Origin: Pyrobaculum sp.
Lineage (GTDB): Archaea; Thermoproteota; Thermoprotei; Thermoproteales; Thermoproteaceae
Direction: 5' to 3'
Assembly (NCBI GenBank): GCA_038879095.1
Contig: JAVZUI010000003.1
Coordinates: 9,640 to 73,639 of the forward strand
Length of the DNA: 64,000 nucleotides
Below, piece after piece: positions 12,176 to 23,724 of this stretch (the first letter of the stretch is position 1; each line of letters opens with the position of its first letter). Below the pieces are notes generated by a model that saw only the letters and a program-made list of their open reading frames with translations, was not told where the DNA came from and did no database searches. The translations under genes were made by a program, and so were the position numbers.

Positions 12176-12253
12176 TTTAACATTATATATCAATTATACT
12201 TTTTTAAATTATTTTTTAGAAAAAATTAAATTTTATAATATTCATTTTTAGAC

Positions 12254-13342
12254 ATGCGCGCGGCATTATTAACCCAGTTCCAAAAGCCTCTTGAGATAAA
12301 GGAGGTGGACGTGCCGAGGCCCAAGAGAGGCGAGGTTCTGATACAAGTACAGGCCTGTGGCATATGTAGGTCAGATTGGCACCTCTGGAGAGGCGACCCC
12401 TCGCTGGTGGCGTACATGGAGTGGTCCGGCGGGAGGCTGCCCATAATTCCAGGCCACGAGGTGGCTGGAAAGGTGGTGGAAGTAGGCGAAGGGGTCGAGA
12501 ACGTCCAGGTGGGCGACGTGGTGGTGGCCCCCGCCTCGTCCACAGGCGACAACAGGTCCTGCAGGTTCTGCAGGGAGGGCAACAGCAATATATGTGAACA
12601 TCTGTGGATACCCGGCTTCGGCACCCACGGCTGCTACGGCGAATATATGTTGGTCCCCGCCGGGTCCGTCGTAGACCTCGTGAAAGTCCCGCCGGGGGTA
12701 AGGCCTGAACACGCGGCAATTACTGGCTACGGGTTTGGGACGGCTTGGAACGCCCTGGTTGTTAAGGGAAGTATTAAGCCCGGCGAGACCCTTCTGGTTA
12801 CCGGCGTGGGGGGAATGGGCCTCAGCGCGGTGGCCATCGCAGTGGCCTCAGGCGCCAAGGTGGTAGCCGTAGACGTCAACCCAGCCTCTGTGGACAAGGC
12901 CAGGAAACTGGGCGCAGTGGCGGCCTACCACTACTCCGGCGACCCGAAGGAGCTTGCCAAGCTGATCAACGAGGAGATAGTGAAGACCTACGGCATGGTG
13001 GACGCGGTATTCGACTCCACCGGCAACCCCGACGTACTCTCAGCCGTGCTCCCCGCAGTGAGACCCCAAGGCAGGGTACTACTGGCGGGGCTCATGATGA
13101 AAGGCAAGGAGATATGGCCACTCGCCTCCGACATAGTGGTGGCAAGGGAGTTGACCATACAGGGTGTGTTGATGCTGGCATCGCAGAAGTACGACAACAT
13201 CTTCAAGTTGATGACGGAGGGCAGGGTCAACCTAGAACCCGTCATATACAGAAGGATCTCGCTGGACGAGGTCAACGACGCCTACGACGAGATGACCAAA
13301 TATAAAAACGCCGGCCGTTTCGTAATTACTAAATTCCGCTAA
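12254..13342 (+). CDS. Zn-dependent alcohol dehydrogenase (MDR family)
   Basis: 'GICRSDWH', 'GHEVAGKVVEVGEGV', a structural-Zn cysteine cluster 'CRFCREGNSNIC', and a Rossmann motif 'VTGVGGMG'. Confidence 0.85.
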   Translation: MRAALLTQFQKPLEIKEVDVPRPKRGEVLIQVQACGICRSDWHLWRGDPSLVAYMEWSGGRLPIIPGHEVAGKVVEVGEGVENVQVGDVVVAPASSTGDNRSCRFCREGNSNICEHLWIPGFGTHGCYGEYMLVPAGSVVDLVKVPPGVRPEHAAITGYGFGTAWNALVVKGSIKPGETLLVTGVGGMGLSAVAIAVASGAKVVAVDVNPASVDKARKLGAVAAYHYSGDPKELAKLINEEIVKTYGMVDAVFDSTGNPDVLSAVLPAVRPQGRVLLAGLMMKGKEIWPLASDIVVARELTIQGVLMLASQKYDNIFKLMTEGRVNLEPVIYRRISLDEVNDAYDEMTKYKNAGRFVITKFR

Positions 13343-13369
13343 ATCAATTTTTTAGATTGTCATTTTTTA

Positions 13370-13867
13370 ATGTGCGTGGAACTAACAAAGCCTTGGATCG
13401 ACTTGGGGAAATACAAGAGGGATAGGCTAAGGGAGGCCCTCTACGAGGCGGAGCTGGCTGAGGAGTTTCTAAAAAACGGACTGTTGAGGAACGCCGCTGG
13501 GAAGGCCTTCCAAGCGGTCAAGGCTCTTCTAGCCGCAGTCGCCGTCGATCATAGAGATAAGATCGTGGCGTCTTTCAAGGGGAAGAGGAGGCTTGGGGAG
13601 GGCAAGGTGGTGGAGCGGGGGGACTGGATCATCGCCGTGATGCCCACTTCGAAAATGCGAGAGGTGGCGGCGCTTGTGGGAGACAGAGACCTGCGCCTAG
13701 CCGTCGAGCTTGCTCTAAACCTACACGAGTTTCAGTACAACGGCCTCGACAAAGACGCCGAGGTCTCCCGCTACTCTTCAGAAGAGCTTGTTAGAAAAGA
13801 CGTACTAGACGTGGTTAACTACGTCAAACGCGTCGCAAGCCAGCTTCCTGAAGCAACGTCAAGTTAG
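13370..13867 (+). CDS. PaREP1/PaREP8-family (HEPN-like) protein
   Basis: 'DRLREALYEAELAEEFLKNGLLRNAAGKAFQAVKALLAAVAV' is a paralog of the ORF at 4565. Confidence 0.75.
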   Translation: MCVELTKPWIDLGKYKRDRLREALYEAELAEEFLKNGLLRNAAGKAFQAVKALLAAVAVDHRDKIVASFKGKRRLGEGKVVERGDWIIAVMPTSKMREVAALVGDRDLRLAVELALNLHEFQYNGLDKDAEVSRYSSEELVRKDVLDVVNYVKRVASQLPEATSS

Positions 13868-13930
13868 GCAGATCACCTATATCATTCAAGCCGTCAAACA
13901 AGTATAAAGTCCTACACATTGCTGGCGCGG

Positions 13931-14028
13931 GGCTCCGCCGAGGGTAAACAGAGACTTGCTTACTTGTGGAGACGAGTAACGAAATACGCGCCTCGGGGGC
14001 TTGTTCCGATCAGAGGCTCGGCGGAGCC
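13931..14028. repeat. Perfect 12-bp inverted repeat GGCTCCGCCGAG / CTCGGCGGAGCC enclosing 74 nt
   Basis: Arms at 13931-13942 and 14017-14028, in the intergenic region between the PaREP1 and FAH genes. Confidence 0.6.
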
Positions 14029-14075
14029 TTAACTGAGCGACGGGACTAAGGCTGTTTTGCCGCCGCCGCGTTGCG

Positions 14076-14085
14076 AAATTAATTT
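14076..14085. promoter_or_regulatory. Perfect palindrome AAATTAATTT upstream of the FAH-family gene
   Basis: 56-66 nt before ATG 14142, upstream of the TATA-like CTTTTTAAAAGG. Confidence 0.4.
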
Positions 14086-14141
14086 TATTTGTCATGATAT
14101 AATTTGAAAAACTTTTTAAAAGGGGATGGTGGTAAGGGGTT

Positions 14142-15050
14142 ATGCGGCTGTTGACGTTTAGAAGGGGCGAAGTGCTGAAGGTGGGCCTCTGGAAGGATGG
14201 AAAGGTCCTAGACCTCCCAGAGGCGTATAAACAAGTGTTCGGCGCGTACGAGGCGCCGGACTTCCTCTACAGCATGAAGAAGCTTATTGCTGTTGGGGAG
14301 CCGGCCTTGGAGGTGGTGAGGAAGCTGGAGGCGAAGGCCAAGGGGCCGTTTTACCAGCCCTCCGAGATCGTGTGGGAGCCTCCTGTGCCGGACCCCGAGA
14401 AGATATTTGCCGTCGCCGTCAACTACAGAGCCCACGGCCAGGAGGCCGGCGTCAAGCCTCCTGAGAAGCCCTACTTCTTCCCCAAGTTCCCCAACGCCCT
14501 CGTCGGCCACGAGGGGCGCGTGGTTAAGCACAAGGTGGCACAAAAGGTGGACTGGGAGGTAGAGCTGGTGGTGGTGCTGGGCAGAGCTGGGAAGTACATC
14601 TCGCCGGAGGAGGCCCTCGACTACGTCTTCGGCTACGCCGTGGGCAACGACATCTCGATCAGAGACTGGCAGTTCCCGCCTGGGTGGCCGCAACAGCTGA
14701 ACCCATACGGCCAGAACTGGATATGGGGCAAGTCCATGGACACCGCCGCGCCGGTGGGGCCGTGGGTCGTGACGAGGGACGAGGTGCCTGACCCCAACCG
14801 CCTGGCGCTGAGGCTTTGGGTGAACGGCAACTTGGAGCAGGAGGGCAACACGTCGGAGCTCATCTTCAACGTCCAGCAGTTGATACACTGGGCCTCGCAG
14901 GGCATTACGCTGAAGCCCGGCGACCTAATATTCACAGGTACGCCGCCGGGGGTGGGCTTCCCCAAGGGCAAGTTCCTCAAGGGCGGGGACGTAGTCGAGG
15001 CGGAGGTGGAGAGGGTGGGCCGCCTTAGGAACTACGTAGTCGAGGAATGA
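14142..15050 (+). CDS. Fumarylacetoacetate hydrolase (FAH)-family hydrolase/hydratase/decarboxylase
   Basis: 'KIFAVAVNYRAH', 'YFFPKFPNALVGH', 'DWEVELVVVLG', 'GYAVGNDISIRDWQ' and 'PGDLIFTGTPPGVG' are the FAH C-terminal domain motifs. Confidence 0.85.
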   Translation: MRLLTFRRGEVLKVGLWKDGKVLDLPEAYKQVFGAYEAPDFLYSMKKLIAVGEPALEVVRKLEAKAKGPFYQPSEIVWEPPVPDPEKIFAVAVNYRAHGQEAGVKPPEKPYFFPKFPNALVGHEGRVVKHKVAQKVDWEVELVVVLGRAGKYISPEEALDYVFGYAVGNDISIRDWQFPPGWPQQLNPYGQNWIWGKSMDTAAPVGPWVVTRDEVPDPNRLALRLWVNGNLEQEGNTSELIFNVQQLIHWASQGITLKPGDLIFTGTPPGVGFPKGKFLKGGDVVEAEVERVGRLRNYVVEE

Positions 15051-16027
15051 AAGCCGCCTTTTTCGAGAGGCCGGGGGAGCTAAAGGTTGGCGACTTTCCC
15101 GACCCCGTAAGGCAACACGGAGAGGTTTTGGTCCGGGTCCTGGCGGCGGGGGTGAACCCCATAGACAGAGCCACCGTCTCGGGCGCAGTCTCTGCTAGCC
15201 CCATGCCCCACGTGCCCGGCGCGGAGTTCGTCGGCGAGGTGCTCGACCCCGGCACCAGCGAGTTTAAGAGAGGGGACAGGGTGGTGGTGTACAACAGGCT
15301 GTTCTGCGGCTCGTGCAGGCAGTGTCTGAGAGGAGAGACTCAGATATGTGAGAGGCTCGGCGGAATAATAGGAGTCGCCGCCCACGGAGGCTGGGCCGAG
15401 CTGGCGGCGGTGCCGTCGCGGAACTTGGTGAGGACCGCCGCGCCGGCCGAGGAGGTGGTGGGCCTGCCGGTGGGCGGGCTCACCGCTTTTAACATGTTGA
15501 GGCGGGCCGCCGTGTCTGTGGGCGACAGAGTGGCCGTGGTGGGCGCCACAGGCAACGTCGGCGTCTACGCAGTACAGCTGGCCAAGCTTATGGGCGCGTA
15601 CGTGGCGGCGGTGACGAGGAGGGCCGACCTACACGCCGCGCGGCTCAAAAGCCTCGGCGCCGACGAGGTCTTGACGCCGGAGGAGGCGAAAAAGGCCGGC
15701 CCCTTCGACGTGGTGGTAGATCCGGTGGGGGCGGGGACGTGGGAGCTGAGCTTCTCTCTACTGGCCAGAGGCGGAAGGTACGTCACGGCGGGCGCGCTGA
15801 CCGGCAGCGAGGTGAAGCTCGACTTGAGACGGCTGTACGGGGGCCAGTACTCGGTGCTGGGGAGCACCGGCGGGAGGAGGGCGGACTTAGAGCTCCTAGT
15901 CTCCCTGGCGGAGAGGGGCCTCTTGAAGACGCCAATATACAAGAGGTACCGCCTAGAGGAGGCGGCGGAGGCGCTGAAGGCCCTTGAAGGCCCGGAGAGG
16001 CTCGGCAAAGTCGTTATAACTATTTAA
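15047..16027 (+). CDS. Zn-type MDR oxidoreductase (alcohol dehydrogenase/quinone oxidoreductase-like)
   Basis: 'GVNPIDRATVSG', 'PGAEFVGEV', 'CGSCRQCLRGETQIC' and 'VVGATGNVG'. ATGA overlap with the FAH gene. Confidence 0.8.
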   Translation: MKAAFFERPGELKVGDFPDPVRQHGEVLVRVLAAGVNPIDRATVSGAVSASPMPHVPGAEFVGEVLDPGTSEFKRGDRVVVYNRLFCGSCRQCLRGETQICERLGGIIGVAAHGGWAELAAVPSRNLVRTAAPAEEVVGLPVGGLTAFNMLRRAAVSVGDRVAVVGATGNVGVYAVQLAKLMGAYVAAVTRRADLHAARLKSLGADEVLTPEEAKKAGPFDVVVDPVGAGTWELSFSLLARGGRYVTAGALTGSEVKLDLRRLYGGQYSVLGSTGGRRADLELLVSLAERGLLKTPIYKRYRLEEAAEALKALEGPERLGKVVITI

Positions 16028-16035
16028 ATTAATTT
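16026..16035. promoter_or_regulatory. Perfect palindrome AAATTAATTT upstream of the PaaA-like diiron gene
   Basis: Overlaps the MDR gene stop, 47-56 nt before ATG 16082. Confidence 0.4.
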
Positions 16036-16081
16036 GCATAATTTTTCGACACTTTTTTATCGCGTTGAGGACACGGAGGAT

Positions 16082-16885
16082 ATGTCCACCGCAGAGAAGT
16101 TGAGGCAGGCATACGAGGAGAAGAAGTACATACTTGCGGAGTTGGAGAAGTTGAAAAACGACAAGCAGTTCCTCGCCCAGTTTAAGACCCCGGTGGAGTT
16201 TACAGACTGGTTTAAGGCCTTTATCGACCCCCTGCTGTCTATACAGTACCAAATCGGCGCGTGGTGGATCCAAAACGCAGATGTGAAAAACGTCATCTCG
16301 TGGCTTAGGCAGGGGGTGTGGAACGAGTGGGCCGCCAACGTGGTGATCACTAAGTCCATCACGGAGTACCGCGACCTCATCGACGACGAGTTTTTCAACG
16401 TCTTCGCCCACCAGGTCTCAGACGAGGCGAGGCACTTCTACATCAGGACAAAGGTCTTGAGGATGTACGGCGGCTCTATGGAGGGGTTCCAGCCCATAAA
16501 GGAGTGGGCCCAGCTGTTTGAGTGGCCGCTGGCCTGCGCCTCGAAGCGCCTCGAGAGGCCGTACTTCCAGGCTAAGTTCACCGGCGGCTTCCAGACGGTG
16601 GAGCTCACGGCGACTGTTCAGCACAAGGGAATCGTGGACCACGCCTACGAGAACCCCGATATTTGGAAGGAGCCCTACAGAAGGGCCACGGAGGCGTTGG
16701 TGAGCTACTCGCGGGAGATAGAAGACGACGAGTCGTTCCACTGGACAATCGCCGAGAGGGTCTGGGCCAAATACGCCAAGACCGCCGAGATGAGGGCCGA
16801 GGTTTTAGACTGCGCGGTAGAGGCCTTGGAGCTCTCCACAGTTGCTAAGATAAGGAGGATAGAGGCGGCTGAGCGGGCTAGATGA
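16082..16885 (+). CDS. Ferritin-like diiron-carboxylate protein, PaaA/PaaC-like oxygenase subunit candidate
   Basis: Two ExxH motifs, 'SDEARH' and 'EDDESFHW', which resemble PaaA 'QDEAGH' and 'KEESFH'. Each has an upstream Glu candidate ('NEW', 'TVEL'). ATG at 16082 follows a GGAGG and a TATA-like T-rich box. Confidence 0.55.
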   Translation: MSTAEKLRQAYEEKKYILAELEKLKNDKQFLAQFKTPVEFTDWFKAFIDPLLSIQYQIGAWWIQNADVKNVISWLRQGVWNEWAANVVITKSITEYRDLIDDEFFNVFAHQVSDEARHFYIRTKVLRMYGGSMEGFQPIKEWAQLFEWPLACASKRLERPYFQAKFTGGFQTVELTATVQHKGIVDHAYENPDIWKEPYRRATEALVSYSREIEDDESFHWTIAERVWAKYAKTAEMRAEVLDCAVEALELSTVAKIRRIEAAERAR

Positions 16886-17202
16886 GGGTCGCCCTGGGGC
16901 CGCTGTCGGAGTTCGGCGAAAGGCCCAAGGTGAAGGTGGTGGGAAGGCGGCACTTCCTAGTGGTTAAAATAGGCGGCGAGGTCTACGTGGCGCAGTCCCT
17001 CTGCCCCCACGCCCGTTGGCCGCTGGGATTCGCCGGGAGGTGCTTCAAGGCGAGGGACGGCGAGCCCTATGTGGTCTGCGCCATACACGGAGGGGTGTGG
17101 AGCTTGAGGACTGGGTCCGGCACTGTGGAGGGGAGGCCAGCGCCTCCCCTCAAGGTCTACGAGGCCCGCGTTGAGGACGGCGTCGTCTATGTGCGGCTCT
17201 GA
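16882..17202 (+). CDS. Rieske [2Fe-2S] ferredoxin
   Basis: 'CPHARWPL' and 'CAIHGGVW' (CxH ... CxxH). 106 aa. ATGA overlap with the diiron gene. Confidence 0.8.
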   Translation: MRVALGPLSEFGERPKVKVVGRRHFLVVKIGGEVYVAQSLCPHARWPLGFAGRCFKARDGEPYVVCAIHGGVWSLRTGSGTVEGRPAPPLKVYEARVEDGVVYVRL

Positions 17203-18868
17203 GGCGGAGGGGGGCTATCTGCCCCTCCACTGGCCTCTATACGCCGACTTGGAGGGCCGTTTTTGGTACCACGACTCGGTGCACTTCGGCGACAAGCCCC
17301 TTCACCCCCTGGACTACTCCTTCACAATTATGCTGATGGACTTCGCCCAGTCGGCGTACTACAGGAGGATATTCGCCATGCCCACCTCCGGGGGGAGGGC
17401 CTCGGTTATTTACATGGGGAGGCCCTACCGCACCTCCTTCCAAGAGCGGCCCCACTTCCGGCCTGAGGTGTTTGAGGAGAGGCTCCGCCACTACCTAGAG
17501 CACTGGGACGAGATATACCACAGGTGGAAGAAAGAGGTTTTGAAGATCATCGAGGAGATCGAGTCTCTGGAGTTCCCCCTTCCCCCCGATGTGGACGCCG
17601 CGCCTGACGGCTCAGGTTACCCCGCGGCGCACAAGCCTCTGGCCAGCTGGCTGAGGCTGCTGGATCTGTGGCTTAGGCTGTGGTGGAGGCACTACGAGAT
17701 GTTGATGCTGGGCTACCTGGTCTACGACTTCTTTTACAAGTTCTGCAAGGCGCACTTCCCAGACATGCCGGACTACCACGTCTCTCTCATGCTGTCGGGA
17801 GGCAGAGAGCTCGACGTGTCGATACCGGAGAAGGAGCTCAGGAGGCTCGCCAAGCTTGCAAAAGAGCTGGGCGTGGCCCACTTGTTGCAGTCGGCGCAGA
17901 CCTTCGCCGAAGCCGCCGAGGCGCTGAGAGGAGCTGGAGAGGCCGGCCGCACGTGGTTGGCTGAGTGGGAGAGGGCCAAGAGGCACTTCCACGTGTCGGC
18001 GGGGAGCGGGATGCTCCACACAGACCTCCGGTGGGACGAGCACCCCGACATCCCCTTCACAATTTTGAAGACCTACCTCGCAGGCGGCGACACGAAGAAG
18101 AGGGGGGTCGACCCCGAGAGACTGGTGGCCGGCTACGCGTCTCTGCTAGACGAAGAGTCCAGGGCGCTTTTTTACAAGTACTTAGAGGCGGCCCGCAGGG
18201 TGTACCCCTACATAGAGGAGCACAGCTTCTACGTGGAGAACTGGGGGTTCTCGGCGGGGTATAAAAAGGTACGCGAGGCGGGCGCCCTGTTGCAAAAGCT
18301 AGGCGTCTTAGAGGACGCCGAGGACGTCTGGTACCTCAACTGGTTCGAGGTGGGGCAGGTCATGATCGAGGGGCTGACGGCGTGGGCCTCGGGCAGAGAG
18401 CCCACCGGCCACTGGAGGGGGGTGGTGGAGTGTAGAAAAGCCGCCTGGAGGCGCTGGGCCGAGTCGGCGCCTCCCCCCCACCTCGGCAGGCCGCCGGAGA
18501 AGATCACAGACTCCAACCTCGCCATGTTGCACAGGGTCGCAGCGGCGTCTGACTCGATCGCCGGCGTAGGCGCCTCCCCCGGCGTTGCGGAGGGGGTGGT
18601 GGCCGTGGTTAGAGAGCCCTCGGACTTCTCCAAGGTTAGGCCCGGCGTCGTCCTCGTGGCGCCTACGCTGTCGCCTGTGATGGGTCCTCTTCTGTCGGTT
18701 GCCTCTGCGGTTGTGACAGACTCGGGAGGGGTCATGTCCCACGCGGCTATCCTCGCAAGGGAGTACGGAATACCAGCAGTGGTGGGGGCAGGCAACGCGA
18801 CTGCCAGGCTTAGAGACGGCATGAGGGTAAGAGTGGACGGGACCAGGGGCGTTGTGGAGGTGTTATGA
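17189..18868 (+). CDS. PEP-utilizing-enzyme family protein: substrate-binding region plus C-terminal His swivel domain (PpsA-like), no ATP-grasp domain
   Basis: The C-terminus 'GVGASPGVAEGVV...VLVAPTLSPVMGPLL..AVVTDSGGVMSHAAILAREYGIPAVVG' is the PEP-utilizers mobile domain with the phospho-His. The N-terminal 430 aa have no P-loop or ATP-grasp motifs. Confidence 0.7.
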   Translation: MCGSEAEGGYLPLHWPLYADLEGRFWYHDSVHFGDKPLHPLDYSFTIMLMDFAQSAYYRRIFAMPTSGGRASVIYMGRPYRTSFQERPHFRPEVFEERLRHYLEHWDEIYHRWKKEVLKIIEEIESLEFPLPPDVDAAPDGSGYPAAHKPLASWLRLLDLWLRLWWRHYEMLMLGYLVYDFFYKFCKAHFPDMPDYHVSLMLSGGRELDVSIPEKELRRLAKLAKELGVAHLLQSAQTFAEAAEALRGAGEAGRTWLAEWERAKRHFHVSAGSGMLHTDLRWDEHPDIPFTILKTYLAGGDTKKRGVDPERLVAGYASLLDEESRALFYKYLEAARRVYPYIEEHSFYVENWGFSAGYKKVREAGALLQKLGVLEDAEDVWYLNWFEVGQVMIEGLTAWASGREPTGHWRGVVECRKAAWRRWAESAPPPHLGRPPEKITDSNLAMLHRVAAASDSIAGVGASPGVAEGVVAVVREPSDFSKVRPGVVLVAPTLSPVMGPLLSVASAVVTDSGGVMSHAAILAREYGIPAVVGAGNATARLRDGMRVRVDGTRGVVEVL

Positions 18869-19629
18869 TAGGCAGACTGTACAAGGTGGCCGAGAGAACC
18901 GCCGCCGCTGTGATGAAGAGGTACAGAGAGGGGGGCGGCGAGGCTGTGGTGAGGCGCGGCGACGTAGACGTCACAAGGTTGGCGGACCAAGAGGCGGGGG
19001 AGGCGGCCTTGTCTGCGCTTAGGGAGGAGTTCCCCGAGGGGGCCTACGTGGTGTCTGAAGAGTCCGGCGTGGTGAGGTGGGGCGACGAGCGGTACCTCAT
19101 CCTCGTCGACCCGCTCGACGGAAGCGAGAACTTTATCGCAAAAGTTCCCCTGTTCGCAGTGGCGGTCGCCGGAGGCGTCTACAAAGAGGGGACTTTGGAA
19201 GATGTGAAAGAGGCCGTGTTGTACCTACCGGCGACTGAGGACGTATACGCCGTAGACGGAGGAGGAGTCCGGCTAAACGGCGCGTCGCTGAGCCCCGTCC
19301 AGAGCCCCAGGGGCGTGGCACTGGTGGAGCTAGGCGCCAAGTTTCCAAGAGAACACGTGGAGATACCCCAGGCCCTCGGGCTGAAGATACGTAGCCTGGG
19401 CTGCGCCACCTACTCCGCATTTCTCGCCGCCTTGGGATACGTAGACCTCTTCATAGACCTACGCAGGAGGCTAGGGCCATGGGACGTGGCCCCCGCCCTC
19501 GCCGCTGGGCTACACAACCCAGCCTACCAGGCGTGGCTAGCAGACGGCTACGCGCTGGACAGACGCGTGGCGGTGATAGCCGGCAAAAAGCCCCACGTAC
19601 AAGAAGCCGTCAAACTGGCGCAGACATAA
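18865..19629 (+). CDS. Inositol monophosphatase/FBPase-family phosphatase
   Basis: 'SEESG', 'LVDPLDGSENF' and 'WDVAPALAAG' are the IMPase metal and substrate motifs. ATGA overlap with the upstream gene. Confidence 0.8.
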   Translation: MIGRLYKVAERTAAAVMKRYREGGGEAVVRRGDVDVTRLADQEAGEAALSALREEFPEGAYVVSEESGVVRWGDERYLILVDPLDGSENFIAKVPLFAVAVAGGVYKEGTLEDVKEAVLYLPATEDVYAVDGGGVRLNGASLSPVQSPRGVALVELGAKFPREHVEIPQALGLKIRSLGCATYSAFLAALGYVDLFIDLRRRLGPWDVAPALAAGLHNPAYQAWLADGYALDRRVAVIAGKKPHVQEAVKLAQT

Positions 19630-20020
19630 AGCCCTCCGGGGGACGCCCAAGACCTTCGAGAAAAACTCAGGGCCGCGTTCCCTCCCCCTCCCGGGGGGAC
19701 ATCCGCGCCCATCATCGTTAAACACGAGGAGCGGTTTTAAAAGTTTAACGACTTTTGGGAGGCAAGGCGGCGCCAAGGCGCCTACTACGCCGCGCGTAGC
19801 GGCGAAGCGGCCCGGCGGGTATGTAAGAGTGATGTCTGCGGGCTTTCTCGCCCCGCCTTGGTTGGGCGGTGTGGGGGCCGTTTTGCGCGCCTGGAGAGTT
19901 AGGCGGCATTTGACGGCGGCTTAGGGCTTGCGTTTATTTTTTAATTATATTTATTTATAAAAATCTTAAATTTTATAAGTTTACAAATTATCTTTAAAAA
20001 ACTTTTCTTACCGAGTGCGT

Positions 20021-21352
20021 ATGAATAGAAGAGATGTGTTTAAAATCGGCGCGGGGGTTGTGGTGGGGCTGGCGTTGGGGTACGGCGTGTCACAGCTGAC
20101 AAGGCCTGCGGCCACCGTCACCACGGCAAAGTCGACTGAGGTGGTGACTCCCTCGTCTACCACCACGCCCTCTGGTCCTAAGAAGCAGTCTGTGAAGATT
20201 GCGGTGGTGACCTTCACCTCTGGGGCCGCCTCGGTGTTCGGCGTGCCTGCGGCGAATATGGCGAGGTTGCTTGCCGACTATCTAAACCAGAGGGGCGGGA
20301 TAAACGGGGCGAGGATTGAGCTTGACGTGAGAGACGAAAGCGGCGGGGCCGACCAGATGGTGGCCTTGTACAGACAGCTGACGCAGGCCGGCGGGGCCGA
20401 CGTCTACGTGGGGCTGATTTCCTCGTCCGACTGCCTGGCGGTCGCCCCCGTGGCTGAGCAGTTGGGCAACACGCTCACTGTGTTTTTCGACTGCGCCACT
20501 AAGCAGTTGGTGGACCAGGGCATGATGAAGAAGGCCGTGTTTAGGACCGGCGGCACCACTGTGCAAGACGGCGTCTCACTGGCGAGGGCCGTGGTTAGGT
20601 TTAAGCCAGATGTGAAGACGGTGGTGGGGCTGAACCAAGACTACGCCTACGGCAGAGACGAGTGGAACGACTTCATCACCGCCTTGAAGAAGCTTAAGCC
20701 GGACGTACAGGTGTTGGACACGCTGTGGACGCCGCTGTTCACCACAGACTACTCCGCGCAGATTTCTAGGATAATTGACTTGAAGCCCGACATTGTGCAC
20801 ACCAGCTTCTGGGGGCCGGACCTGGCCAACTTTGTAAAACAGGCATCGGCGAGGGGGCTGTTCAACGTGACGACGGTGGCCTTCGCCAGGGGCGAGTCCA
20901 TGATGCAGGACCTGGGCGATGCGTTGCCCGAGGGCCAGATAGTGGAGGGCCCCCACTACTTCGAGTTCCCCACGCTGAGCCCGCTGAACAAGGAGATTAG
21001 AGAGGAGTACAGGAAGAGGTACGGCTACTACCCGCCGTACCCCGCCTACCACATGGCCAACGCCATCTTCGGGGTGAAGTACGCCATAGAGGCGGCCTCG
21101 ATGATCTCTGGGGAGGACTGGCCGGACTTGTCCACGGTGTCGAAGGTCTTCGAACGTCTGGCCTACCCGGCGCCGGGGGACTGGATAATTATGGCGCCTA
21201 ACCACAACGCGGTGAGGGGCGCGGTTGTGGGCGTCACCAAGTCCGTGGAGGGATACAAGTTCAAGCTCCTCCGCCCGTGGTACTACGAGCCGCCTGCTGA
21301 CATCAACCCGCCGCCCGGCATGACCAGCGCCCAGTGGTACGACACATGGTAG
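20021..21352 (+). CDS. ABC transporter substrate-binding protein, LivK/branched-chain-amino-acid (type I PBP) family, Tat-type signal
   Basis: 'NRRDVFKIGAG' is a twin-arginine signal followed by a TM segment and a Thr/Ser/Pro-rich linker. The body is LivK-like ('KIAVVTFTSGAASVFG', 'GLNQDYAYGRD'). Confidence 0.8.
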   Translation: MNRRDVFKIGAGVVVGLALGYGVSQLTRPAATVTTAKSTEVVTPSSTTTPSGPKKQSVKIAVVTFTSGAASVFGVPAANMARLLADYLNQRGGINGARIELDVRDESGGADQMVALYRQLTQAGGADVYVGLISSSDCLAVAPVAEQLGNTLTVFFDCATKQLVDQGMMKKAVFRTGGTTVQDGVSLARAVVRFKPDVKTVVGLNQDYAYGRDEWNDFITALKKLKPDVQVLDTLWTPLFTTDYSAQISRIIDLKPDIVHTSFWGPDLANFVKQASARGLFNVTTVAFARGESMMQDLGDALPEGQIVEGPHYFEFPTLSPLNKEIREEYRKRYGYYPPYPAYHMANAIFGVKYAIEAASMISGEDWPDLSTVSKVFERLAYPAPGDWIIMAPNHNAVRGAVVGVTKSVEGYKFKLLRPWYYEPPADINPPPGMTSAQWYDTW

Positions 21353-22200
21353 GGCTCCTCCTCTCGATCCTGTTTTTTTGGGCCTACCTCTCCCTAGTGG
21401 CCGCGGGCCTCCAGTTCATATACGGAAGCGCCAGAGTTTTAAACCTGGCTCACGCCTCTTTTTTCGTCCTCGGCGGCTACCTGGCGTCTTATCTTTCAAA
21501 TTTTTTGTCGTGGCCCCTCCCGGCGTCGGTGGCCGCCGCCTCAGCCGCCGGCGCCGCCGCAGGGCTCGTCCTATACATTGCGCTCGCCCGCATCTCCGAC
21601 GAGGTGGACCAGCTGGTCTTCACCTACTCCGTATTCTGGCTCTTCGAGGCCTTTTTCAGAGGCGTCTTCGGCTACGGGCTGTACAGCACAGCGGACACGG
21701 CGGCGCGCCTCGGCGTGTTGACGCTCGGCGACCAGAGGGTGCCCGTTGCCAACCTAGTGGGCGTGGCCTCGGTGGTGGCGGTGTTCGCCGCCTTGTACTT
21801 CGTGATGTCTAAGACCACCTTCGGCATGTTTTTAAGAGCTGTCGTGGACAACCCCCCGGCGGCCGAGGCCTTCGGCGTACCCCTCAGGCGAGTTGTGGCG
21901 CTGGGCGTGGCGCTGGGTTCCGCCCTGGCGGCGTTTGGGGGGTCGATTTCGTCCATGTGGCAGAACTTCAACGTGGGCCTTGCCGGCGTGGTGTTGGTCT
22001 ACGCCTTCGCCGCGGTGGCCGTGGGCGGGCTGGGAAACGTGTTCGGCGCCTTGGCCGCCTCTTTTATAATAAGCCTCGTGAGGGCGCTGGCCGTGTACTA
22101 CTTCCCGGAGGTGGAGCTCTTCGCCATCTACTTAGTGGTGCTGACCGTTTTGACGCTGAGGCCCTCGGGGCTGTTCGTAAGGTATGAGAGGCGCGTATAG
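21346..22200 (+). CDS. livH: Branched-chain-type ABC transporter permease (LivH-like)
   Basis: Polytopic membrane protein with LivH-like motifs 'LNLAHASFFVLGGY' and 'GGLGNVFGA'. Overlaps the SBP stop. Confidence 0.8.
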   Translation: MVGLLLSILFFWAYLSLVAAGLQFIYGSARVLNLAHASFFVLGGYLASYLSNFLSWPLPASVAAASAAGAAAGLVLYIALARISDEVDQLVFTYSVFWLFEAFFRGVFGYGLYSTADTAARLGVLTLGDQRVPVANLVGVASVVAVFAALYFVMSKTTFGMFLRAVVDNPPAAEAFGVPLRRVVALGVALGSALAAFGGSISSMWQNFNVGLAGVVLVYAFAAVAVGGLGNVFGALAASFIISLVRALAVYYFPEVELFAIYLVVLTVLTLRPSGLFVRYERRV

Positions 22201-23077
22201 CTTGGCCGTGCCGGCGGCGTTGCTGGCGGCCTACTTCCTAGTGCCTAACTCTTATTTCAAATACGAGGCGGTGTACTGGGCAGTCATGTCGATCACAATG
22301 CTGGGGGCGGTTACTCTGGTCGAGGCGGGCCTCGTCAACTTCGGCTACGGCATGTACGTGGCCGCGGGGGCCTACACGGCGGCTTTGTTATTCAAACACT
22401 TAAAAATCGGCGAGGTTGCGGTGGCGATCCCGCTGTCTGCGGCGGTGGGGGCGGCCTTCGGCGCCGTCACAGGCCTTGCCCTCGCCAAGCTGAGGGGGAT
22501 ATTCTACGCCCTGTCCAGCCTGGCCCTGTCCATGGTGCTGTACGGGTTTTTAGTAAAGTTCTACTACTTCACCGGCGGGTCGGACGGAGTGACGCTGTAC
22601 GGCGCAACAATCGGCGGGCAGCCGCTGGGCATGGACGCCTTGGCCTTGCTGACTGCGGCGGCGCTTGCAACGGCCTTGTGGTTTAGGCATAAGTACCTCC
22701 AGTGGGGCATCTGGCATCTGGCGCGCGGCATTAGGGAGAACGAGGTGAAGCTCTGGTCGCTGGGCGTGGACACCGGCAGGACTGTGGTGGCCCTCTCCGC
22801 CTTCGCTGGGCTGTGGGGCGGTCTCGGCGGGTCGCTACTGGCGTATTTAACCGCCCACGTCTCCCCCGAGCTGTCCTTCTGGGCCTTCTCAGGCTTCGTG
22901 GTGGCGGGCGCCCTCGTGTCGGCCCAGGCGTCGTACGGCCTAGGCTTCTTGGTGGGCGGGCTGATAGCCAGGGCTTTGAACGTGTCCGCCTTCTACACCA
23001 ACGCCTACGAGCTGTCCATCGGCCTGGGCCTCCTGGCGGCGTTTGCGGCCGCAAAGCTCTGGAAGAGGCATGCTTGA
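22184..23077 (+). CDS. livM: Branched-chain-type ABC transporter permease (LivM-like)
   Basis: Polytopic membrane protein with LivM-like motifs 'GLVNFGYGMYVAAGAY' and 'LRGIFYALSSLA'. Confidence 0.8.
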   Translation: MRGAYSLAVPAALLAAYFLVPNSYFKYEAVYWAVMSITMLGAVTLVEAGLVNFGYGMYVAAGAYTAALLFKHLKIGEVAVAIPLSAAVGAAFGAVTGLALAKLRGIFYALSSLALSMVLYGFLVKFYYFTGGSDGVTLYGATIGGQPLGMDALALLTAAALATALWFRHKYLQWGIWHLARGIRENEVKLWSLGVDTGRTVVALSAFAGLWGGLGGSLLAYLTAHVSPELSFWAFSGFVVAGALVSAQASYGLGFLVGGLIARALNVSAFYTNAYELSIGLGLLAAFAAAKLWKRHA

Positions 23078-23724
23078 GGCGGTGGGCCTCAGCAAAAGGT
23101 TCGGAGGCGTCTCGGCGCTACACGACGTGAGCCTGAGGGTGGCGTCGGGCGAGTTCGTGGCGGTGGTGGGGCCCAACGGCTCTGGAAAGACCACCTTGAT
23201 CAACGTCATCTCGGGCTTTGTGAAGCCCGACGCTGGCAGAGTGTTGCTGAACGGCCGAGAGGTCACGAAGTGGCCTCCCCACAAGAGGGCCAGGGCGGGC
23301 CTCGTGAGGACTTTTCAGCTCCCCCAGCTGATGCCGGGCCTCACCGTGTACGAAAACGCCTTGGCCGCAGCCTCCGCGCTGTCTGGCTTCAAGAGGCCGG
23401 ACGAGGCCAGAGCGAGGGAGTTGTTAGAGGCCTTCGGCCTCTGGGAGGTGCGGGGGCTGAAGATCCACGAAGTGTCGGAGGGCCACAGAAAGCTACTCGA
23501 CGTGGCCATGGCCATGTTCCTAAGGCCAAAGGTGTTGCTTTTAGACGAGCCCACCTCCTCCGTCAGCACTGCTGACAAGTTCAAAGTGATGAAAGTGATA
23601 TTTGACAACTTGAAGAGGGAGGGCGTCTCTGCAGTGTTTGTGGAACACGACATGGAGGTGGTGAAGAGCTTCGCCCACAGAGTGGTGAAGATGGAAAACG
23701 GCAGGGTGGTGGGGGAGGAGACCT

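What the first reader, a model, noticed from the sequence alone, without database searches (positions are those of the whole stretch)
16082..19629. Undescribed-looking operon: PaaA-like diiron protein, Rieske ferredoxin, PpsA-like His-swivel phosphotransferase and IMPase-family phosphatase
- Seen: four + strand genes are translationally coupled. The ATGA at 16882 joins the diiron and Rieske genes. ATG 17189 lies 11 nt before the Rieske stop. The ATGA at 18865 joins the swivel enzyme and the phosphatase.
- Gene 1 (about 267 aa) has two ExxH motifs, 'SDEARH' and 'DDESFH'. These resemble the PaaA ligand motifs 'QDEAGH' and 'KEESFH'. Each has an upstream Glu candidate, which gives a four-helix-bundle diiron signature.
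- Gene 2 is a 106-aa Rieske protein (CPH...CAIH).
- Gene 3 ends in a textbook PEP-utilizer mobile domain ('GGVMSHAAILAREYGIP').
- Gene 4 has the IMPase motifs 'DPLDGSENF' and 'WDVAPA'.
- Established: Rieske ferredoxins feed toluene-monooxygenase-type diiron hydroxylases, whereas PaaABCE uses a different reductase. His-swivel enzymes that lack the ATP-grasp half resemble phenylphosphate synthase subunit A and the substrate and His domains of rifampin phosphotransferase.
- Inference: this may be a stand-alone diiron oxygenase fed by a Rieske protein and coupled to a phosphorylation/dephosphorylation step on a hydroxylated, possibly phenolic, substrate. I know of no characterised pathway with this gene combination.
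- Context: the operon sits directly after FAH and MDR genes and 4 kb from a full multicomponent monooxygenase operon.
Basis: partly seen in the sequence, partly recalled or inferred. Interest (0 to 1): 0.85.

Follow-up and report, generated by a model that had tools for sequence, protein, structure and literature searches.

The report
Archaeal phosphate-masked aromatic oxidation operon remnant
Four overlapping Pyrobaculum genes (a new iron-oxygenase-like protein, its small iron-sulfur electron carrier, a phosphate-transferring enzyme and a phosphatase) form a conserved operon that most likely oxidises a phenolic compound while it is temporarily phosphorylated, but in this genome a 12.8-kb deletion has fused two paralogues into a hybrid first gene and removed the kinase's ATP-binding partner.

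Summary
All four + strand genes, their overlaps and the quoted motifs are present.

- **G1** (16082-16885) belongs to a Pyrobaculum-restricted family with no Pfam model. It carries an invariant E / DExxH / E / DExxH set on four long helices. A widened profile links it remotely to a VlmB homologue and to PaaA.
- **G2** is a Rieske ferredoxin.
- **G3** is the substrate-binding plus His-swivel component of a two-component small-molecule dikinase. Its model matches rifampin phosphotransferase (E=1e-16). This is the architecture of PpsA, CreH and HpeH.
- **G4** is an IMPase-family phosphatase.

The quartet is conserved as a block in at least four other Pyrobaculum genomes. It always lies in an aromatic-catabolism island that also encodes a paralogous swivel protein with a separate ATP-grasp subunit.

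First, the bacterial Cre and Hpe pathways already set a precedent: phosphorylate a phenol, transform the aryl phosphate, then dephosphorylate. Second, the window's G1 is an in-frame hybrid of two paralogues. It was created by a 12,783-nt deletion at a 7-nt microhomology, and that deletion removed the ATP-grasp gene.

Verdict: a new variant of a known kind. The substrate and the order of steps are inferred. Interest is moderate.

The parts
16022..16040 (+). AT-rich TATA/BRE-like element (CTATTTAAATTAATTTGC) just after the MDR stop codon. It is the putative archaeal promoter of G1. It derives from the G1a paralogue's upstream region.
   Evidence: Read from the sequence. This region is collinear with the G1a upstream region in L007. 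Promoter function is inferred and was not tested.
16082..16885 (+). G1: a 267-aa ferritin-like diiron-carboxylate-type protein from a new Pyrobaculum-restricted family. It is an in-frame hybrid of paralogues G1a and G1b.
   Evidence: - No Pfam, NCBIfam or PDB sequence hit.
- 28 homologues, all Pyrobaculum or Thermoproteaceae.
- Invariant E82, E115, H118, E174, H181, E214, E217 and H220.
- AF2 pLDDT 96, all-helical, with the candidate ligands on helices 68-94, 102-128, 161-190 and 200-231.
- The widened profile matches the VlmB homologue 6d9f (6e-9) and PaaA 4ii4 (4e-6).
16082..16377 (+). G1a-derived portion of the hybrid gene. It contains the predicted ligand E82.
   Evidence: 110 of 110 informative sites match G1a of MAG JAWBBC010000005.1.
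16378..16384 (+). Deletion junction: the 7-nt microhomology CATCGAC shared by G1a and G1b.
   Evidence: 12,783 nt are missing relative to the 99.5-99.8% identical MAG contig. The same junction is present in L018 and in P0136.
16385..16885 (+). G1b-derived portion of the hybrid gene. It contains DEARH, E174/H181 and DDESFH.
   Evidence: 165 of 166 informative sites match G1b.
16882..17202 (+). G2: a 106-aa Rieske [2Fe-2S] ferredoxin, translationally coupled to G1 by an ATGA overlap.
   Evidence: - PF00355 at 2.5e-9.
- The closest NCBIfam models are Rieske ferredoxin subunits of ring dioxygenases (AndAb, HcaC) and NirD.
- Cluster ligands C41-x-H43 and C66-x-x-H69 are present.
17189..18868 (+). 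G3: a 559-aa substrate-binding plus His-swivel component of a two-component small-molecule dikinase (PpsA/CreH/HpeH type). It has no ATP-grasp domain.
   Evidence: - PF00391 matches only residues 484-554.
- NCBIfam PRK08296 subfamily NF006153 scores 460 bits, below its cut-off of 578.
- Sequence match to rifampin phosphotransferase (RPH) 5fbs, 6.5e-21, over residues 319-559.
- AF2 pLDDT 86.
- Foldseek match to RPH-Lm 5fbu, E=1e-16, TMq 0.61-0.65.
- H518 is invariant in 26 homologues.
18725..18775 (+). Phospho-histidine motif GGVMSHAAILAREYGIP of G3. The catalytic His518 codon is at 18740-18742.
   Evidence: The motif matches the GGxTS/CHAAI/V consensus quoted in PMC12167813.
18865..19629 (+). 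G4: a 254-aa IMPase/FBPase-family phosphatase, translationally coupled to G3. It is a divergent paralogue and not the housekeeping enzyme.
   Evidence: - PF00459 at 5.7e-21.
- The best NCBIfam model, PRK12676, scores only 84 bits against a cut-off of 264.
- PDB 1xi6 at 1.1e-16.
- The metal-binding motifs EES, DPLDGS and WD are present.

Best explanation
The four genes are a Pyrobaculum-specific catabolic operon. It most likely handles a phenolic substrate as its phosphate ester.

Proposed steps:
1. G3 is the acceptor-binding, His-swivel half of a two-component dikinase. It transfers a phosphoryl group from its phospho-His518 to the phenolic hydroxyl. In intact islands, His518 would be charged by the separate ATP-grasp subunit encoded next to G3's paralogue. 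Alternatively it could be charged by transphosphorylation from another aryl phosphate.
2. G1 is a new ferritin-like diiron protein. It receives single electrons from the Rieske ferredoxin G2 and uses O2 to oxidise the aryl phosphate, by side-chain or ring hydroxylation.
3. G4, an IMPase-family phosphatase, then removes the masking phosphate.

This is the logic of the bacterial Cre (4-cresol) and Hpe (hydroxyphenylethanone) pathways. Here a diiron/Rieske oxygenase replaces the P450 or the carboxylase, and an IMPase-type phosphatase replaces CreD or the NagD-like HpeD.

In this particular genome the operon is a deletion derivative:
- A 12,783-nt microhomology-mediated deletion fused the first 99 codons and the promoter of paralogue G1a to the rest of G1b.
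- The deletion removed 14 called ORFs, including the ATP-grasp subunit.
- Activity in this strain is therefore uncertain.

Shown: gene structure, family and fold assignments, conserved candidate ligands, synteny, and the hybrid/deletion.
Inferred: metal content, electron flow, substrate class, order of steps, and activity.
For: Component identities.

G1 as a redox dimetal enzyme:
- The invariant E82 / D114-E115-x-x-H118 / D216-E217-x-x-H220 set is kept even in 17 distant relatives at about 20% identity, and E174 in most of them.
- These residues sit on four long helices of 27-32 residues.
- Profile links to the VlmB homologue, PaaA, R2lox and the sMMO alpha subunit.
- One distant relative is fused to a rubredoxin.
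- In nearly all loci a small Rieske gene is adjacent to the G1-type gene or pair, or within a few kb.

Quartet conservation despite shuffled flanks:
- P. oguniense (L001), MAG PSS.bin.21 (L005) and MAG QW452 (L008).
- In P. ferrireducens (L016) the quartet is bounded by opposite-strand genes on both sides.

Island parts that parallel the Cre and Hpe pathways:
- swivel2 plus a PPDK_N ATP-grasp protein;
- aldehyde dehydrogenase, Zn-ADH and MDR;
- two NagD-type HAD phosphatases;
- LigAB ring-cleavage dioxygenase;
- a toluene/phenol-type multicomponent monooxygenase.

Precedents:
- PMC12167813 covers the two-component phenolic dikinases PpsAB, CreHI and HpeHI. HpeH is homologous to the RIF-binding and swivel domains of rifampin phosphotransferase (RPH). 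HpeH alone transfers phosphate from an aryl phosphate to a phenol.
- PMC9618137 shows that the carboxylase acts only on the phosphorylated substrate and that the NagD-like HpeD then dephosphorylates the product.

Hybrid and deletion.
Against: - No ATP-grasp (PPDK_N) gene is present in the 64-kb window. G3 has no demonstrated phosphate source in this strain.
- The G3 clade is Pyrobaculum-specific. It is only 35-41% identical to the widespread ~610-aa family. It was not compared directly with the CreH, HpeH or PpsA sequences, which were not available.
- G1's remote homology is transitive. The Pyrobaculum-only profile gives E=0.33 to the VlmB homologue.
- Foldseek puts TenA/PqqC/UndA-type heme-oxygenase-like folds first, at weak E-values of 3e-3 or worse.
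- Nothing identifies the substrate. The island also carries NUDIX and several other phosphatases that this scheme does not need.
- The cluster is decaying in at least two lineages (the window's deletion, and fragmentation in L017). This suggests weak selection.
- No expression or biochemical data exist.
Confidence: 0.45

Rival explanations
1. G1/G2 first hydroxylate a non-phosphorylated aromatic substrate. G3 then phosphorylates the new phenolic or catecholic hydroxyl, for example to stabilise an autoxidisable product at high temperature. G4 releases the phosphate later.
For: The component assignments are the same. The gene order is oxygenase, ferredoxin, kinase component, phosphatase. The toluene/phenol monooxygenase upstream could supply phenols.
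Against: In all three characterised two-component phenolic dikinase pathways, phosphorylation is the initiating step, and the next enzyme requires the phosphorylated substrate (PMC12167813, PMC9618137). Gene order is not a reliable guide to reaction order.
Confidence: 0.15
2. Whatever its ancestral role, the cluster in this genome is a non-functional or functionally reduced remnant. The hybrid G1 may be misfolded or have altered specificity. G3 is orphaned because its ATP-grasp partner was deleted together with LigAB, the aldehyde dehydrogenase and the other phosphatases.
For: - The 12,783-nt deletion removes 14 called ORFs, including PPDK_N.
- The predicted metal site is chimeric: E82 comes from G1a and the other ligands from G1b.
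- A P. aerophilum assembly shows independent decay: G1b split into 91 + 178 aa, IMPase cut to 183 aa, and a 77-aa PPDK_N fragment.
- G1' is split in the intact MAG.
Against: - All four ORFs are intact and still overlap.
- The fusion is exactly in frame and keeps every invariant residue.
- The hybrid allele occurs in at least three assemblies with slightly different sequences, so it persists in the population.
- The rest of this genome, outside the window, could encode another ATP-grasp partner.
- HpeH-type components can transphosphorylate without the ATP-grasp subunit (PMC12167813).
Confidence: 0.3
3. The operon contains two functionally unrelated pairs, or acts on a non-aromatic phosphorylated metabolite such as a sugar, inositol, nucleotide or cofactor. 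In this reading G1/G2 form an oxidase and G3/G4 form a phosphorylation cycle unrelated to phenols.
For: - IMPase-family enzymes normally act on sugar, inositol or nucleotide phosphates.
- The island contains NUDIX and several HAD phosphatases.
- Distant G1 relatives lie in N-heterocycle catabolism clusters.
- G1's top structural neighbours include TenA and PqqC, which act on heterocycles.
Against: - The start/stop overlaps and the strict co-conservation of all four genes argue for one pathway.
- Every characterised two-component member of the G3 type acts on phenolics (PMC12167813).
- The neighbours are aromatic-catabolism genes: the monooxygenase operon, LigAB, FAH and the aldehyde dehydrogenase.
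Confidence: 0.15
4. G1 is not a metalloenzyme. It would be a TenA/PqqC-like helical protein, either cofactor-independent or hydrolytic, and the E/H motifs would be coincidental.
For: Foldseek ranks TenA homologues and PqqC first, with TM 0.55-0.70 normalised to the target. No metal-family HMM matches G1 directly.
Against: - Those matches have E of 3e-3 or worse and 9-15% identity.
- Dimetal enzymes (UndA, CADD, aldehyde-deformylating oxygenases) appear in the same list.
- The E / DExxH / DExxH residues are invariant across about 20%-identical relatives.
- The profile then finds only diiron proteins in the PDB.
- G1 is coupled to a Rieske gene, and one distant relative is fused to a rubredoxin.
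Confidence: 0.05

Closest known systems
Cre pathway of Corynebacterium glutamicum (CreHI dikinase, CreJEF P450 system, CreC/CreG dehydrogenases, CreD phosphohydrolase). Source: Du et al. 2016, J Biol Chem 291:6583. That paper was not held, so the pathway details are from my own knowledge. The component list and the role of CreHI are confirmed in PMC8796525, PMC12167813 and PMC9618137.
   Same: - The overall logic matches: a two-component ATP-grasp plus swivel dikinase phosphorylates a phenol, an oxygenase with its own small iron-sulfur electron carrier oxidises the aryl phosphate, and a dedicated phosphatase removes the phosphate.
- Alcohol and aldehyde dehydrogenases are encoded nearby.
- G3 has the domain architecture reported for CreH and HpeH.
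   Different: - The oxygenase is a ferritin-like diiron protein with a Rieske ferredoxin, not a P450 with its ferredoxin and ferredoxin reductase.
- The phosphatase is IMPase-family.
- The host is a hyperthermophilic archaeon.
- The operon's own swivel component has no adjacent ATP-grasp gene.
- The substrate is unknown.
Hpe pathway of Rhodococcus rhodochrous GD02 (HpeHI, HpeCBA, HpeD) (PMC9618137, PMC12167813)
   Same: - It is a kinase, transformation, phosphatase sequence acting on a phosphorylated phenol.
- HpeH consists of RIF-binding-like and swivel domains, with the catalytic His near the C-terminus, as in G3.
- HpeD is a NagD-like HAD phosphatase. The intact Pyrobaculum island carries two NagD-type HADs beside swivel2/PPDK_N.
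   Different: - The middle step in Hpe is a biotin carboxylase, not an oxygenase.
- The quartet's phosphatase is IMPase-type rather than NagD-type.
- No CoA ligase or hydrolase is present.
Phenylphosphate synthase PpsAB(C) of Thauera and Aromatoleum (anaerobic phenol catabolism)
   Same: It has split swivel/substrate (PpsA) and ATP-grasp (PpsB) subunits and a phospho-His mechanism. The swivel2 plus PPDK_N pair in the intact island has the same layout.
   Different: No UbiD-type phenylphosphate carboxylase is present in the island. The neighbours are O2-dependent enzymes. G3 itself lacks an adjacent PpsB.
Rifampin phosphotransferase (RPH-Lm; PDB 5fbs, 5fbt, 5fbu)
   Same: It is the best structural match of the G3 model (E=1e-16, TMq 0.61-0.65) and a clear sequence match over residues 319-559.
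   Different: RPH is a single polypeptide that includes the ATP-grasp domain. G3 lacks that domain. RPH functions in antibiotic resistance.
PaaA (phenylacetyl-CoA epoxidase catalytic subunit) and VlmB-homologue diiron oxidases
   Same: They share the E / (D/Q)ExxH / E / (D/E)ExxH ligand pattern. They are the two best solved relatives of the widened G1 profile: 6d9f at 6e-9 and 4ii4 at 4e-6.
   Different: - G1 does not match PF05138 or PF11583.
- It has no PaaB, PaaC or PaaE partners and no CoA-ligase context.
- Its electron donor is a Rieske ferredoxin.
- Its paralogue G1' keeps all ligands, unlike PaaC.
Toluene/phenol multicomponent monooxygenases (TmoA-F type)
   Same: A Rieske ferredoxin delivers electrons to a carboxylate-bridged diiron hydroxylase. 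A true member of this family lies 6 kb upstream in the window.
   Different: G1 is a single ~30-kDa protein with no Phenol_Hydrox domain, no beta or gamma subunits and no effector protein.

Membership tests
Ferritin-like diiron-carboxylate superfamily (G1) | Two E...ExxH half-motifs carried on a four-helix bundle | tested here: met
   E82, E115xxH118, E174 and E217xxH220 are invariant in 25 family members. They lie on helices 68-94, 102-128, 161-190 and 200-231 of a pLDDT-96 model. The E82 / DExxH / DExxH residues are also invariant in 17 distant relatives.
Ferritin-like diiron-carboxylate superfamily (G1) | Significant sequence or profile similarity to known members | tested here: inconclusive
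   Direct searches find nothing, and the family-only profile gives E=0.33. The transitively widened profile A2 gives the VlmB homologue at 6e-9 and PaaA at 4e-6, followed by R2lox, sMMO and RNR R2.
Ferritin-like diiron-carboxylate superfamily (G1) | Binds two Fe (or Fe/Mn) ions and activates O2 | not testable with these tools
   Needs metal analysis and spectroscopy.
PaaA/PaaC family (PF05138) | Match to the family HMM at or above its gathering score | tested here: not met
   G1 has no PF05138 hit at E<=0.1. Only 3 of 25 sequences in the widened set hit it weakly, with a best E of 2.8e-4 and a score below the cut-off.
PaaA/PaaC family (PF05138) | PaaB, PaaC and PaaE partners and a phenylacetate-CoA ligase context | tested here: not met
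   None of these is present in the window or in related islands. The DUF59/PaaD-like gene at 9936-10388 belongs to the monooxygenase operon.
Heme-oxygenase-like diiron oxidases (UndA/CADD/SznF type) | Heme-oxygenase-like helical fold | tested here: inconclusive
   Foldseek's top hits are TenA, PqqC, UndA and CADD, with TM 0.55-0.69 but E of 3e-3 or worse. Ferritin-like aldehyde-deformylating oxygenases appear in the same list.
Heme-oxygenase-like diiron oxidases (UndA/CADD/SznF type) | A 3-His/3-carboxylate ligand set with an HxxxD/ExxH helix (pattern recalled from my own knowledge) | tested here: not met
   The residue seven positions before H220 is Ile213, not His. G1 shows the 2x(E...ExxH) pattern instead.
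Rieske [2Fe-2S] ferredoxin (G2) | Rieske domain HMM match plus CxH...CxxH cluster ligands in a small stand-alone protein | tested here: met
   PF00355 scores 37.4 bits against a cut-off of 20.3. C41-P-H43 and C66-A-I-H69 are present in a 106-aa protein.
Two-component small-molecule (phenolic) dikinases PpsAB/CreHI/HpeHI (G3 as the H/A component) | C-terminal His-swivel domain with the GGxxS/CHAAI/V motif and a conserved catalytic His | tested here: met
   PF00391 at 4.4e-25 over residues 484-554. The motif GGVMSHAAILAR is present, and H518 is invariant in 26 homologues.
Two-component small-molecule (phenolic) dikinases PpsAB/CreHI/HpeHI (G3 as the H/A component) | An acceptor-binding domain homologous to the rifampin-binding domain of RPH, with no ATP-grasp domain and no PEP/pyruvate TIM barrel | tested here: met
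   Foldseek match to RPH-Lm at E=1e-16 over about 600 columns. No PF01326 or PF02896 domain is present. NCBIfam rifamycin phosphotransferase and PEP synthase models align only to their C-terminal halves.
Two-component small-molecule (phenolic) dikinases PpsAB/CreHI/HpeHI (G3 as the H/A component) | A separate ATP-grasp (PPDK_N-only) subunit encoded with it | tested here: not met
   No PPDK_N gene is present in the window. In intact islands a 333-335-aa PPDK_N protein follows the paralogue swivel2, 3-5 kb from G3. It lies within the segment deleted in this genome.
Two-component small-molecule (phenolic) dikinases PpsAB/CreHI/HpeHI (G3 as the H/A component) | Sequence clustering with characterised PpsA, CreH or HpeH, and ATP-dependent phosphorylation of a phenol | not tested
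   The reference sequences were not retrievable. No hit or 79 carried such a name. Activity needs biochemistry.
Inositol monophosphatase / FBPase family (G4) | Family HMM match plus the metal-binding motifs (EE, DPxDG[ST], WD) | tested here: met
   PF00459 scores 75.6 bits against a cut-off of 27. VVSEESG, DPLDGSENF and WDVAPA are present. PDB 1xi6 at 1e-16.
Inositol monophosphatase / FBPase family (G4) | Equivalence to the archaeal housekeeping IMPase/FBPase | tested here: not met
   NF009321 scores 83.8 bits against a cut-off of 264. G4 is a divergent, cluster-specific paralogue.

The most novel reading that the evidence does not exclude
Pyrobaculum runs a hyperthermophilic, O2-dependent 'phosphate-masked' aromatic pathway. 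In it a previously unrecognised, lineage-specific family of Rieske-fed diiron oxygenases (three paralogous subtypes: G1a, G1' and G1b) specifically recognises aryl phosphates. Examples would be 4-methylphenyl phosphate derived from the toluene-monooxygenase product p-cresol, or phenyl phosphate. A second swivel protein (G3) works without its own ATP-grasp subunit. It would either share that of its paralogue or relay phosphate between aryl phosphates. The hybrid G1 in this genome would then be a naturally occurring, in-frame chimeric diiron enzyme that is still active and is expressed from the other paralogue's promoter.
Probability: 0.25. Interest if true: 0.75.

Novelty: new variant of a known kind. 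Interest (0 to 1): 0.55.

Why it matters
If the proposed mechanism holds:
- Phosphorylation-initiated aerobic phenol catabolism is so far characterised only in a few bacteria (Cre, Hpe). This would extend it to hyperthermophilic Archaea.
- The aryl-phosphate-transforming step would turn out to be modular: P450, biotin carboxylase, and now a diiron/Rieske oxygenase.
- It would define a new diiron protein family with no Pfam model.
- It would give a testable reason for masking phenols at about 90-100 °C: trapping, and protection from autoxidation.

The analysis also gives a candidate 'upper pathway' enzyme for the actinobacterial ARO microcompartment loci, whose substrate is unknown.

Independently of function, the hybrid G1 is a clean natural example of a paralogue-fusing, microhomology-mediated deletion. 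The deletion rewires an operon's promoter and removes an essential partner subunit.

Tried and rejected
- **Direct searches with G1.** Pfam, NCBIfam and PDB sequence searches gave nothing. The family-only profile against the PDB was non-significant.
- **Exhaustive profile search with G1.** A search of 1.84 billion representative proteins found only Pyrobaculum-type sequences plus about 25 weak, distant ferritin-like proteins. Their Pfam hits were sub-threshold and scattered over DUF455, AurF, Haem_oxygenas_2 and PaaA_PaaC, so no single family could be assigned.
- **Gene contexts of distant G1 relatives.** These were either too short or unrelated. One lay in an N-heterocycle catabolism cluster. 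They gave no functional transfer.
- **ATP-grasp partner or second swivel gene in the window.** None was found.
- **Second profile search with the G3 alignment.** It returned the same candidate pool and no protein named PpsA, CreH or HpeH. Clade assignment within the phenolic dikinases could not be made.
- **ARO microcompartment paper.** It was read to see whether it explains the swivel/ATP-grasp pair. It does not mention the pair.
- **Literature on Pyrobaculum aromatic catabolism or phenylphosphate synthase.** Nothing relevant was found. The Du et al. 2016 Cre paper was not held.
- **CoA-related reading.** I considered a PaaA-like enzyme acting on a CoA thioester, with NUDIX as a CoA pyrophosphatase and the IMPase as a PAP phosphatase. 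I rejected it because the island has no CoA ligase, thiolase or hydratase.
- **Aniline N-oxygenation route.** I considered N-oxygenation followed by phosphate-assisted rearrangement to 2-aminophenol. It is pure speculation: the Pyrobaculum island has no deaminase (RidA), and nothing supports it.
- **Assembly artefact at the hybrid junction.** I rejected this because the overlap is only 7 nt and the same junction occurs in at least three assemblies with slightly different sequences.
- **Rfam and tRNA scans of the window.** Both were empty.

Full report
**1. Observation**

The window comes from a Pyrobaculum. A PaREP1 gene lies at 13370-13867, and every close homologue is from Pyrobaculum. The four + strand ORFs exist as described:

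| Gene | Coordinates | Length |
|---|---|---|
| G1 | 16082-16885 | 267 aa |
| G2 | 16882-17202 | 106 aa |
| G3 | 17189-18868 | 559 aa |
| G4 | 18865-19629 | 254 aa |

- The ATGA overlaps at 16882 and 18865 and the 14-nt G2/G3 overlap follow from the sequence and the ORF coordinates.
- Every quoted motif is present.
- An AT-rich TATA-like element at 16022-16040 and a GGAGG 5 nt before the ATG precede G1.
- A 385-nt spacer separates G4 from the next gene.

**2. The three recognisable proteins**

- **G2** is a Rieske domain protein (PF00355, 2.5e-9) with CxH...CxxH ligands. Its nearest curated models are ferredoxin subunits of ring dioxygenases.
- **G4** is an IMPase/FBPase-family phosphatase (PF00459, 5.7e-21; PDB 1xi6, 1e-16) with the metal motifs intact. 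It scores far below the cut-off of the housekeeping archaeal enzyme (84 bits against 264), so it is a specialised paralogue.
- **G3** matches Pfam only in its last 70 residues, the PEP-utilizers swivel domain.
  - Over its full length it belongs to NCBI's unnamed PRK08296 group (460 bits).
  - It aligns with the C-terminal half of rifampin phosphotransferase (5fbs, 6.5e-21).
  - An AlphaFold model (pLDDT 86) matches RPH-Lm with E=1e-16 and TMq 0.61-0.65 over about 600 columns.
  - It has no ATP-grasp domain and no PEP/pyruvate TIM barrel.
  - His518, in GGVMSHAAILAR, is invariant in 26 homologues.
  - This is the architecture reported for HpeH, CreH and PpsA. These are the acceptor-binding/swivel components of two-component phenolic dikinases, whose ATP-grasp half is a separate protein (PMC12167813).

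**3. G1**

- G1 has no hit in Pfam or NCBIfam, or by sequence in the PDB.
- Its family is confined to Pyrobaculum and Thermoproteaceae. A word-indexed search found 28 hits. An exhaustive HMM search of 1.84 billion representatives found essentially one 50%-identity cluster plus fragments.
- Within the family, E82, E115, H118, E174, H181, E214, E217 and H220 are invariant.
- The AlphaFold model is very confident (pLDDT 96) and all-helical. The candidate ligands lie on four long helices: 68-94, 102-128, 161-190 and 200-231. This is the two-fold E...ExxH layout of ferritin-like diiron proteins.
- About 25 distant relatives (E 7e-11 to 7e-4, about 20% identity) still keep E82, Q111, D114, E115, H118, D216, E217 and H220 without exception. 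One of them carries a C-terminal rubredoxin domain.
- A profile that includes these relatives finds only diiron proteins in the PDB: a VlmB homologue (6d9f, 6e-9), PaaA (4ii4, 4e-6), then R2lox, sMMO alpha and RNR R2.
- Foldseek puts heme-oxygenase-like folds first (TenA, PqqC, UndA, CADD; TM 0.55-0.69), together with ferritin-like aldehyde-deformylating oxygenases. All have E of 3e-3 or worse.
- I conclude that G1 is a dimetal-carboxylate oxidase/oxygenase-type protein of a new family. PaaA is a remote relative, but G1 is not a member of the PaaA/PaaC family (no PF05138 match). Metal content and chemistry are inferred.

**4. Conservation**

The quartet recurs as a block in the order G1b-Rieske-G3-IMPase in several genomes:

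- P. oguniense TE7 (L001), MAG PSS.bin.21 (L005) and MAG QW452 (L008).
- P. ferrireducens (L016), where opposite-strand genes bound it on both sides. There it must be a self-contained transcription unit.
- A P. aerophilum assembly has it in decayed form: G1b is split, the IMPase is truncated and PPDK_N is reduced to a fragment.

The quartet always sits in one island. Besides the quartet, the island carries:

- a paralogous swivel protein (618 aa, 40% identical to G3), followed by a 333-335-aa PPDK_N ATP-grasp protein, an aldehyde dehydrogenase and a HAD hydrolase;
- two NagD-type HAD phosphatases;
- LigB/LigA extradiol dioxygenase;
- a NUDIX hydrolase;
- a second diiron set (G1a-G1'-Rieske), and a Rieske-domain protein with its own Rieske ferredoxin;
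- FAH, MDR and a Zn-ADH;
- a toluene/phenol-type multicomponent monooxygenase with DUF59 and a fused ETF.

**5. The hybrid gene**

A MAG contig that is 99.5-99.8% identical to the window (JAWBBC010000005.1) carries two G1 paralogues 12.8 kb apart.

- Window 6087-16608 is collinear with the G1a side, and window 16311-26885 with the G1b side.
- Within G1, all 110 informative sites up to 16377 are G1a-type, and 165 of 166 from 16385 onward are G1b-type.
- The junction is the 7-nt microhomology CATCGAC.
- The missing segment is 12,783 nt, a multiple of three.
- G1a and G1b are only 66% identical at the DNA level.
- The same junction is present in an ENA metagenome scaffold (L018, 99.84% identical, spanning 15868-17106) and in another MAG (P0136). 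Each differs by one or two residues. The junction is therefore a real allele and not an assembly error.
- Consequences:
  - The window's G1 has a chimeric predicted metal site, with E82 from G1a and the other ligands from G1b.
  - G1 is driven by the G1a promoter.
  - 14 called ORFs are lost, including LigAB, the aldehyde dehydrogenase, three HADs, swivel2 and the only nearby ATP-grasp subunit.
  - No PPDK_N gene lies elsewhere in the window.

**6. Comparison with what is known**

Two-component phenolic dikinases initiate three characterised pathways (PMC12167813, PMC9618137):

- PpsAB, in anaerobic phenol catabolism.
- CreHI, in aerobic 4-cresol catabolism in Corynebacterium.
- HpeHI, in catabolism of 4-hydroxyacetophenone and acetovanillone in Rhodococcus.

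In the Hpe pathway the next enzyme accepts only the phosphorylated substrate. A NagD-like phosphatase, HpeD, then removes the phosphate (PMC9618137).

In the Cre pathway, a P450 with its ferredoxin and reductase oxidises the methyl group of the aryl phosphate. Alcohol and aldehyde dehydrogenases and the phosphohydrolase CreD complete the route. This rests on my own knowledge of Du et al. 2016, which was not held. The component list is confirmed in PMC8796525.

The Pyrobaculum island has a functional counterpart for each Cre part:

| Cre part | Pyrobaculum counterpart |
|---|---|
| Dikinase | swivel2/PPDK_N and G3 |
| Oxygenase plus small Fe-S carrier | G1/G2 |
| Alcohol dehydrogenase | Zn-ADH, MDR |
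| Aldehyde dehydrogenase | aldehyde dehydrogenase (Aldedh) |
| Phosphatase | G4, NagD-type HADs |

The island also has an upstream toluene-monooxygenase-like enzyme that could make cresols or phenol, and a LigAB-type ring-cleavage enzyme downstream. The quartet therefore works like a Cre/Hpe-type 'phosphorylate, transform, dephosphorylate' module. It is not a member of either pathway, because the oxygenase and the phosphatase belong to different families.

HpeH alone can move phosphate from an aryl phosphate to another phenol (PMC12167813). This offers one way for G3 to act without its own ATP-grasp subunit.

**7. Best explanation and its status**

- Shown: gene structure, family and fold assignments, conserved candidate ligands, the block synteny, and the hybrid/deletion event.
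- Inferred:
  - G1 binds two metal ions and uses O2.
  - G2 is G1's electron donor. This rests on translational coupling, on the Rieske genes found beside or near G1-type genes, and on the rubredoxin fusion in a distant relative.
  - G3 phosphorylates a phenolic hydroxyl.
  - G1 acts on the aryl phosphate.
  - G4 removes the phosphate.
- A p-cresol-type or phenol-type substrate is a reasoned guess from the island's composition, nothing more.
- Whether the deletion form in this genome is active is open.

**8. Rivals**

The rivals are:
- a non-functional remnant in this strain;
- a non-aromatic phosphorylated substrate, or two unrelated gene pairs;
- a non-metal TenA/PqqC-like G1.

The evidence for and against each is given in the rival section of this report.

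**9. Verdict**

- The claim that there is no precedent does not hold, since the Cre and Hpe pathways provide one.
- The 'neat operon after FAH/MDR' is a product of a recent deletion.
- What remains new is a lineage-restricted diiron family coupled to a Rieske ferredoxin inside an archaeal version of the phosphate-masking strategy, plus a natural chimeric gene.
- I rate it a new variant of a known kind, with interest about 0.55.

Noticed in passing
window 5835-12172: A toluene/phenol-type multicomponent monooxygenase operon.
- The alpha subunit is split into two ORFs: 5835-6656 (Phenol_Hydrox) and 6735-7661 (YHS domain).
- It also encodes a TmoB-like protein, a Rieske ferredoxin, an MmoB/DmpM effector and a beta subunit.
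- It is followed by a DUF59/FeS-assembly protein and a fused ETF beta-alpha protein (602 aa), instead of the usual NADH:ferredoxin reductase.
- The ETF fusion may be the electron source for the Rieske ferredoxins, including G2.
   Followed up: partly
L009 445-9899 (Pseudonocardia yunnanensis, BAAAUS010000020.1): A swivel protein (41% identical to Pyrobaculum swivel2) and its PPDK_N partner lie next to the aldehyde dehydrogenase of an ARO-type bacterial microcompartment locus. That locus contains BMC and EutN shell genes, a LigB pair, RidA and a HAD. The ARO microcompartment paper (PMC10470539) does not mention this kinase pair. It is a candidate for the unknown upper-pathway step of ARO loci in Pseudonocardiales.
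   Followed up: partly
L017 8877-17020 (P. aerophilum assembly NMUF01000007.1): The same island shows independent decay. G1b is split into 91 + 178 aa, the IMPase is truncated to 183 aa, PPDK_N is reduced to a 77-aa fragment, and the ETF fusion is broken into three ORFs. In the intact MAG (L007 10856-11538), G1' is split into 60 + 162 aa. The island appears to be under weak selection in several lineages.
   Followed up: partly
L012 8001-8885 (Logan SRR10276843_340): A distant G1 relative (P0048) is fused to a C-terminal rubredoxin. It sits among amidohydrolases, a xanthine-dehydrogenase-type molybdenum hydroxylase, an amidase/AtzH-like pair and a 2OG oxygenase. This looks like an N-heterocycle catabolism cluster.
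   Followed up: partly
window 20015-24375: A five-gene LivK-type ABC transporter lies directly downstream of G4. It consists of a Peripla_BP_6 binding protein with a weak TAT-like signal, two permeases and two ATPases. It is conserved next to the quartet in the near-identical MAG (L008). Transporters of this type import aromatic acids in some bacteria, but specificity was not examined.
   Followed up: no
window 4099-4536: An HbpS-like/GlcG-type protein (PF03928, 1.2e-32). Homologues recur next to G1-type loci in P. oguniense (L001 13578-13979) and in L003, L004 and L005. Its role is unknown.
   Followed up: no
window 33147-34526: A very strong match to the 56-kDa selenium-binding protein family (SBP56, E=2e-193), the family that includes methanethiol oxidases. 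It is unrelated to the finding.
   Followed up: no
window 16574-16576 and 16706-16708 (G1 residues 165 and 209): The only two differences between the window and the 1239-nt metagenome scaffold L018 are both non-synonymous and both lie inside the hybrid G1 (F165V and Y209F). At residue 209 the parental G1b has Phe, so the window's Tyr is derived. The numbers are too small to interpret.
   Followed up: no
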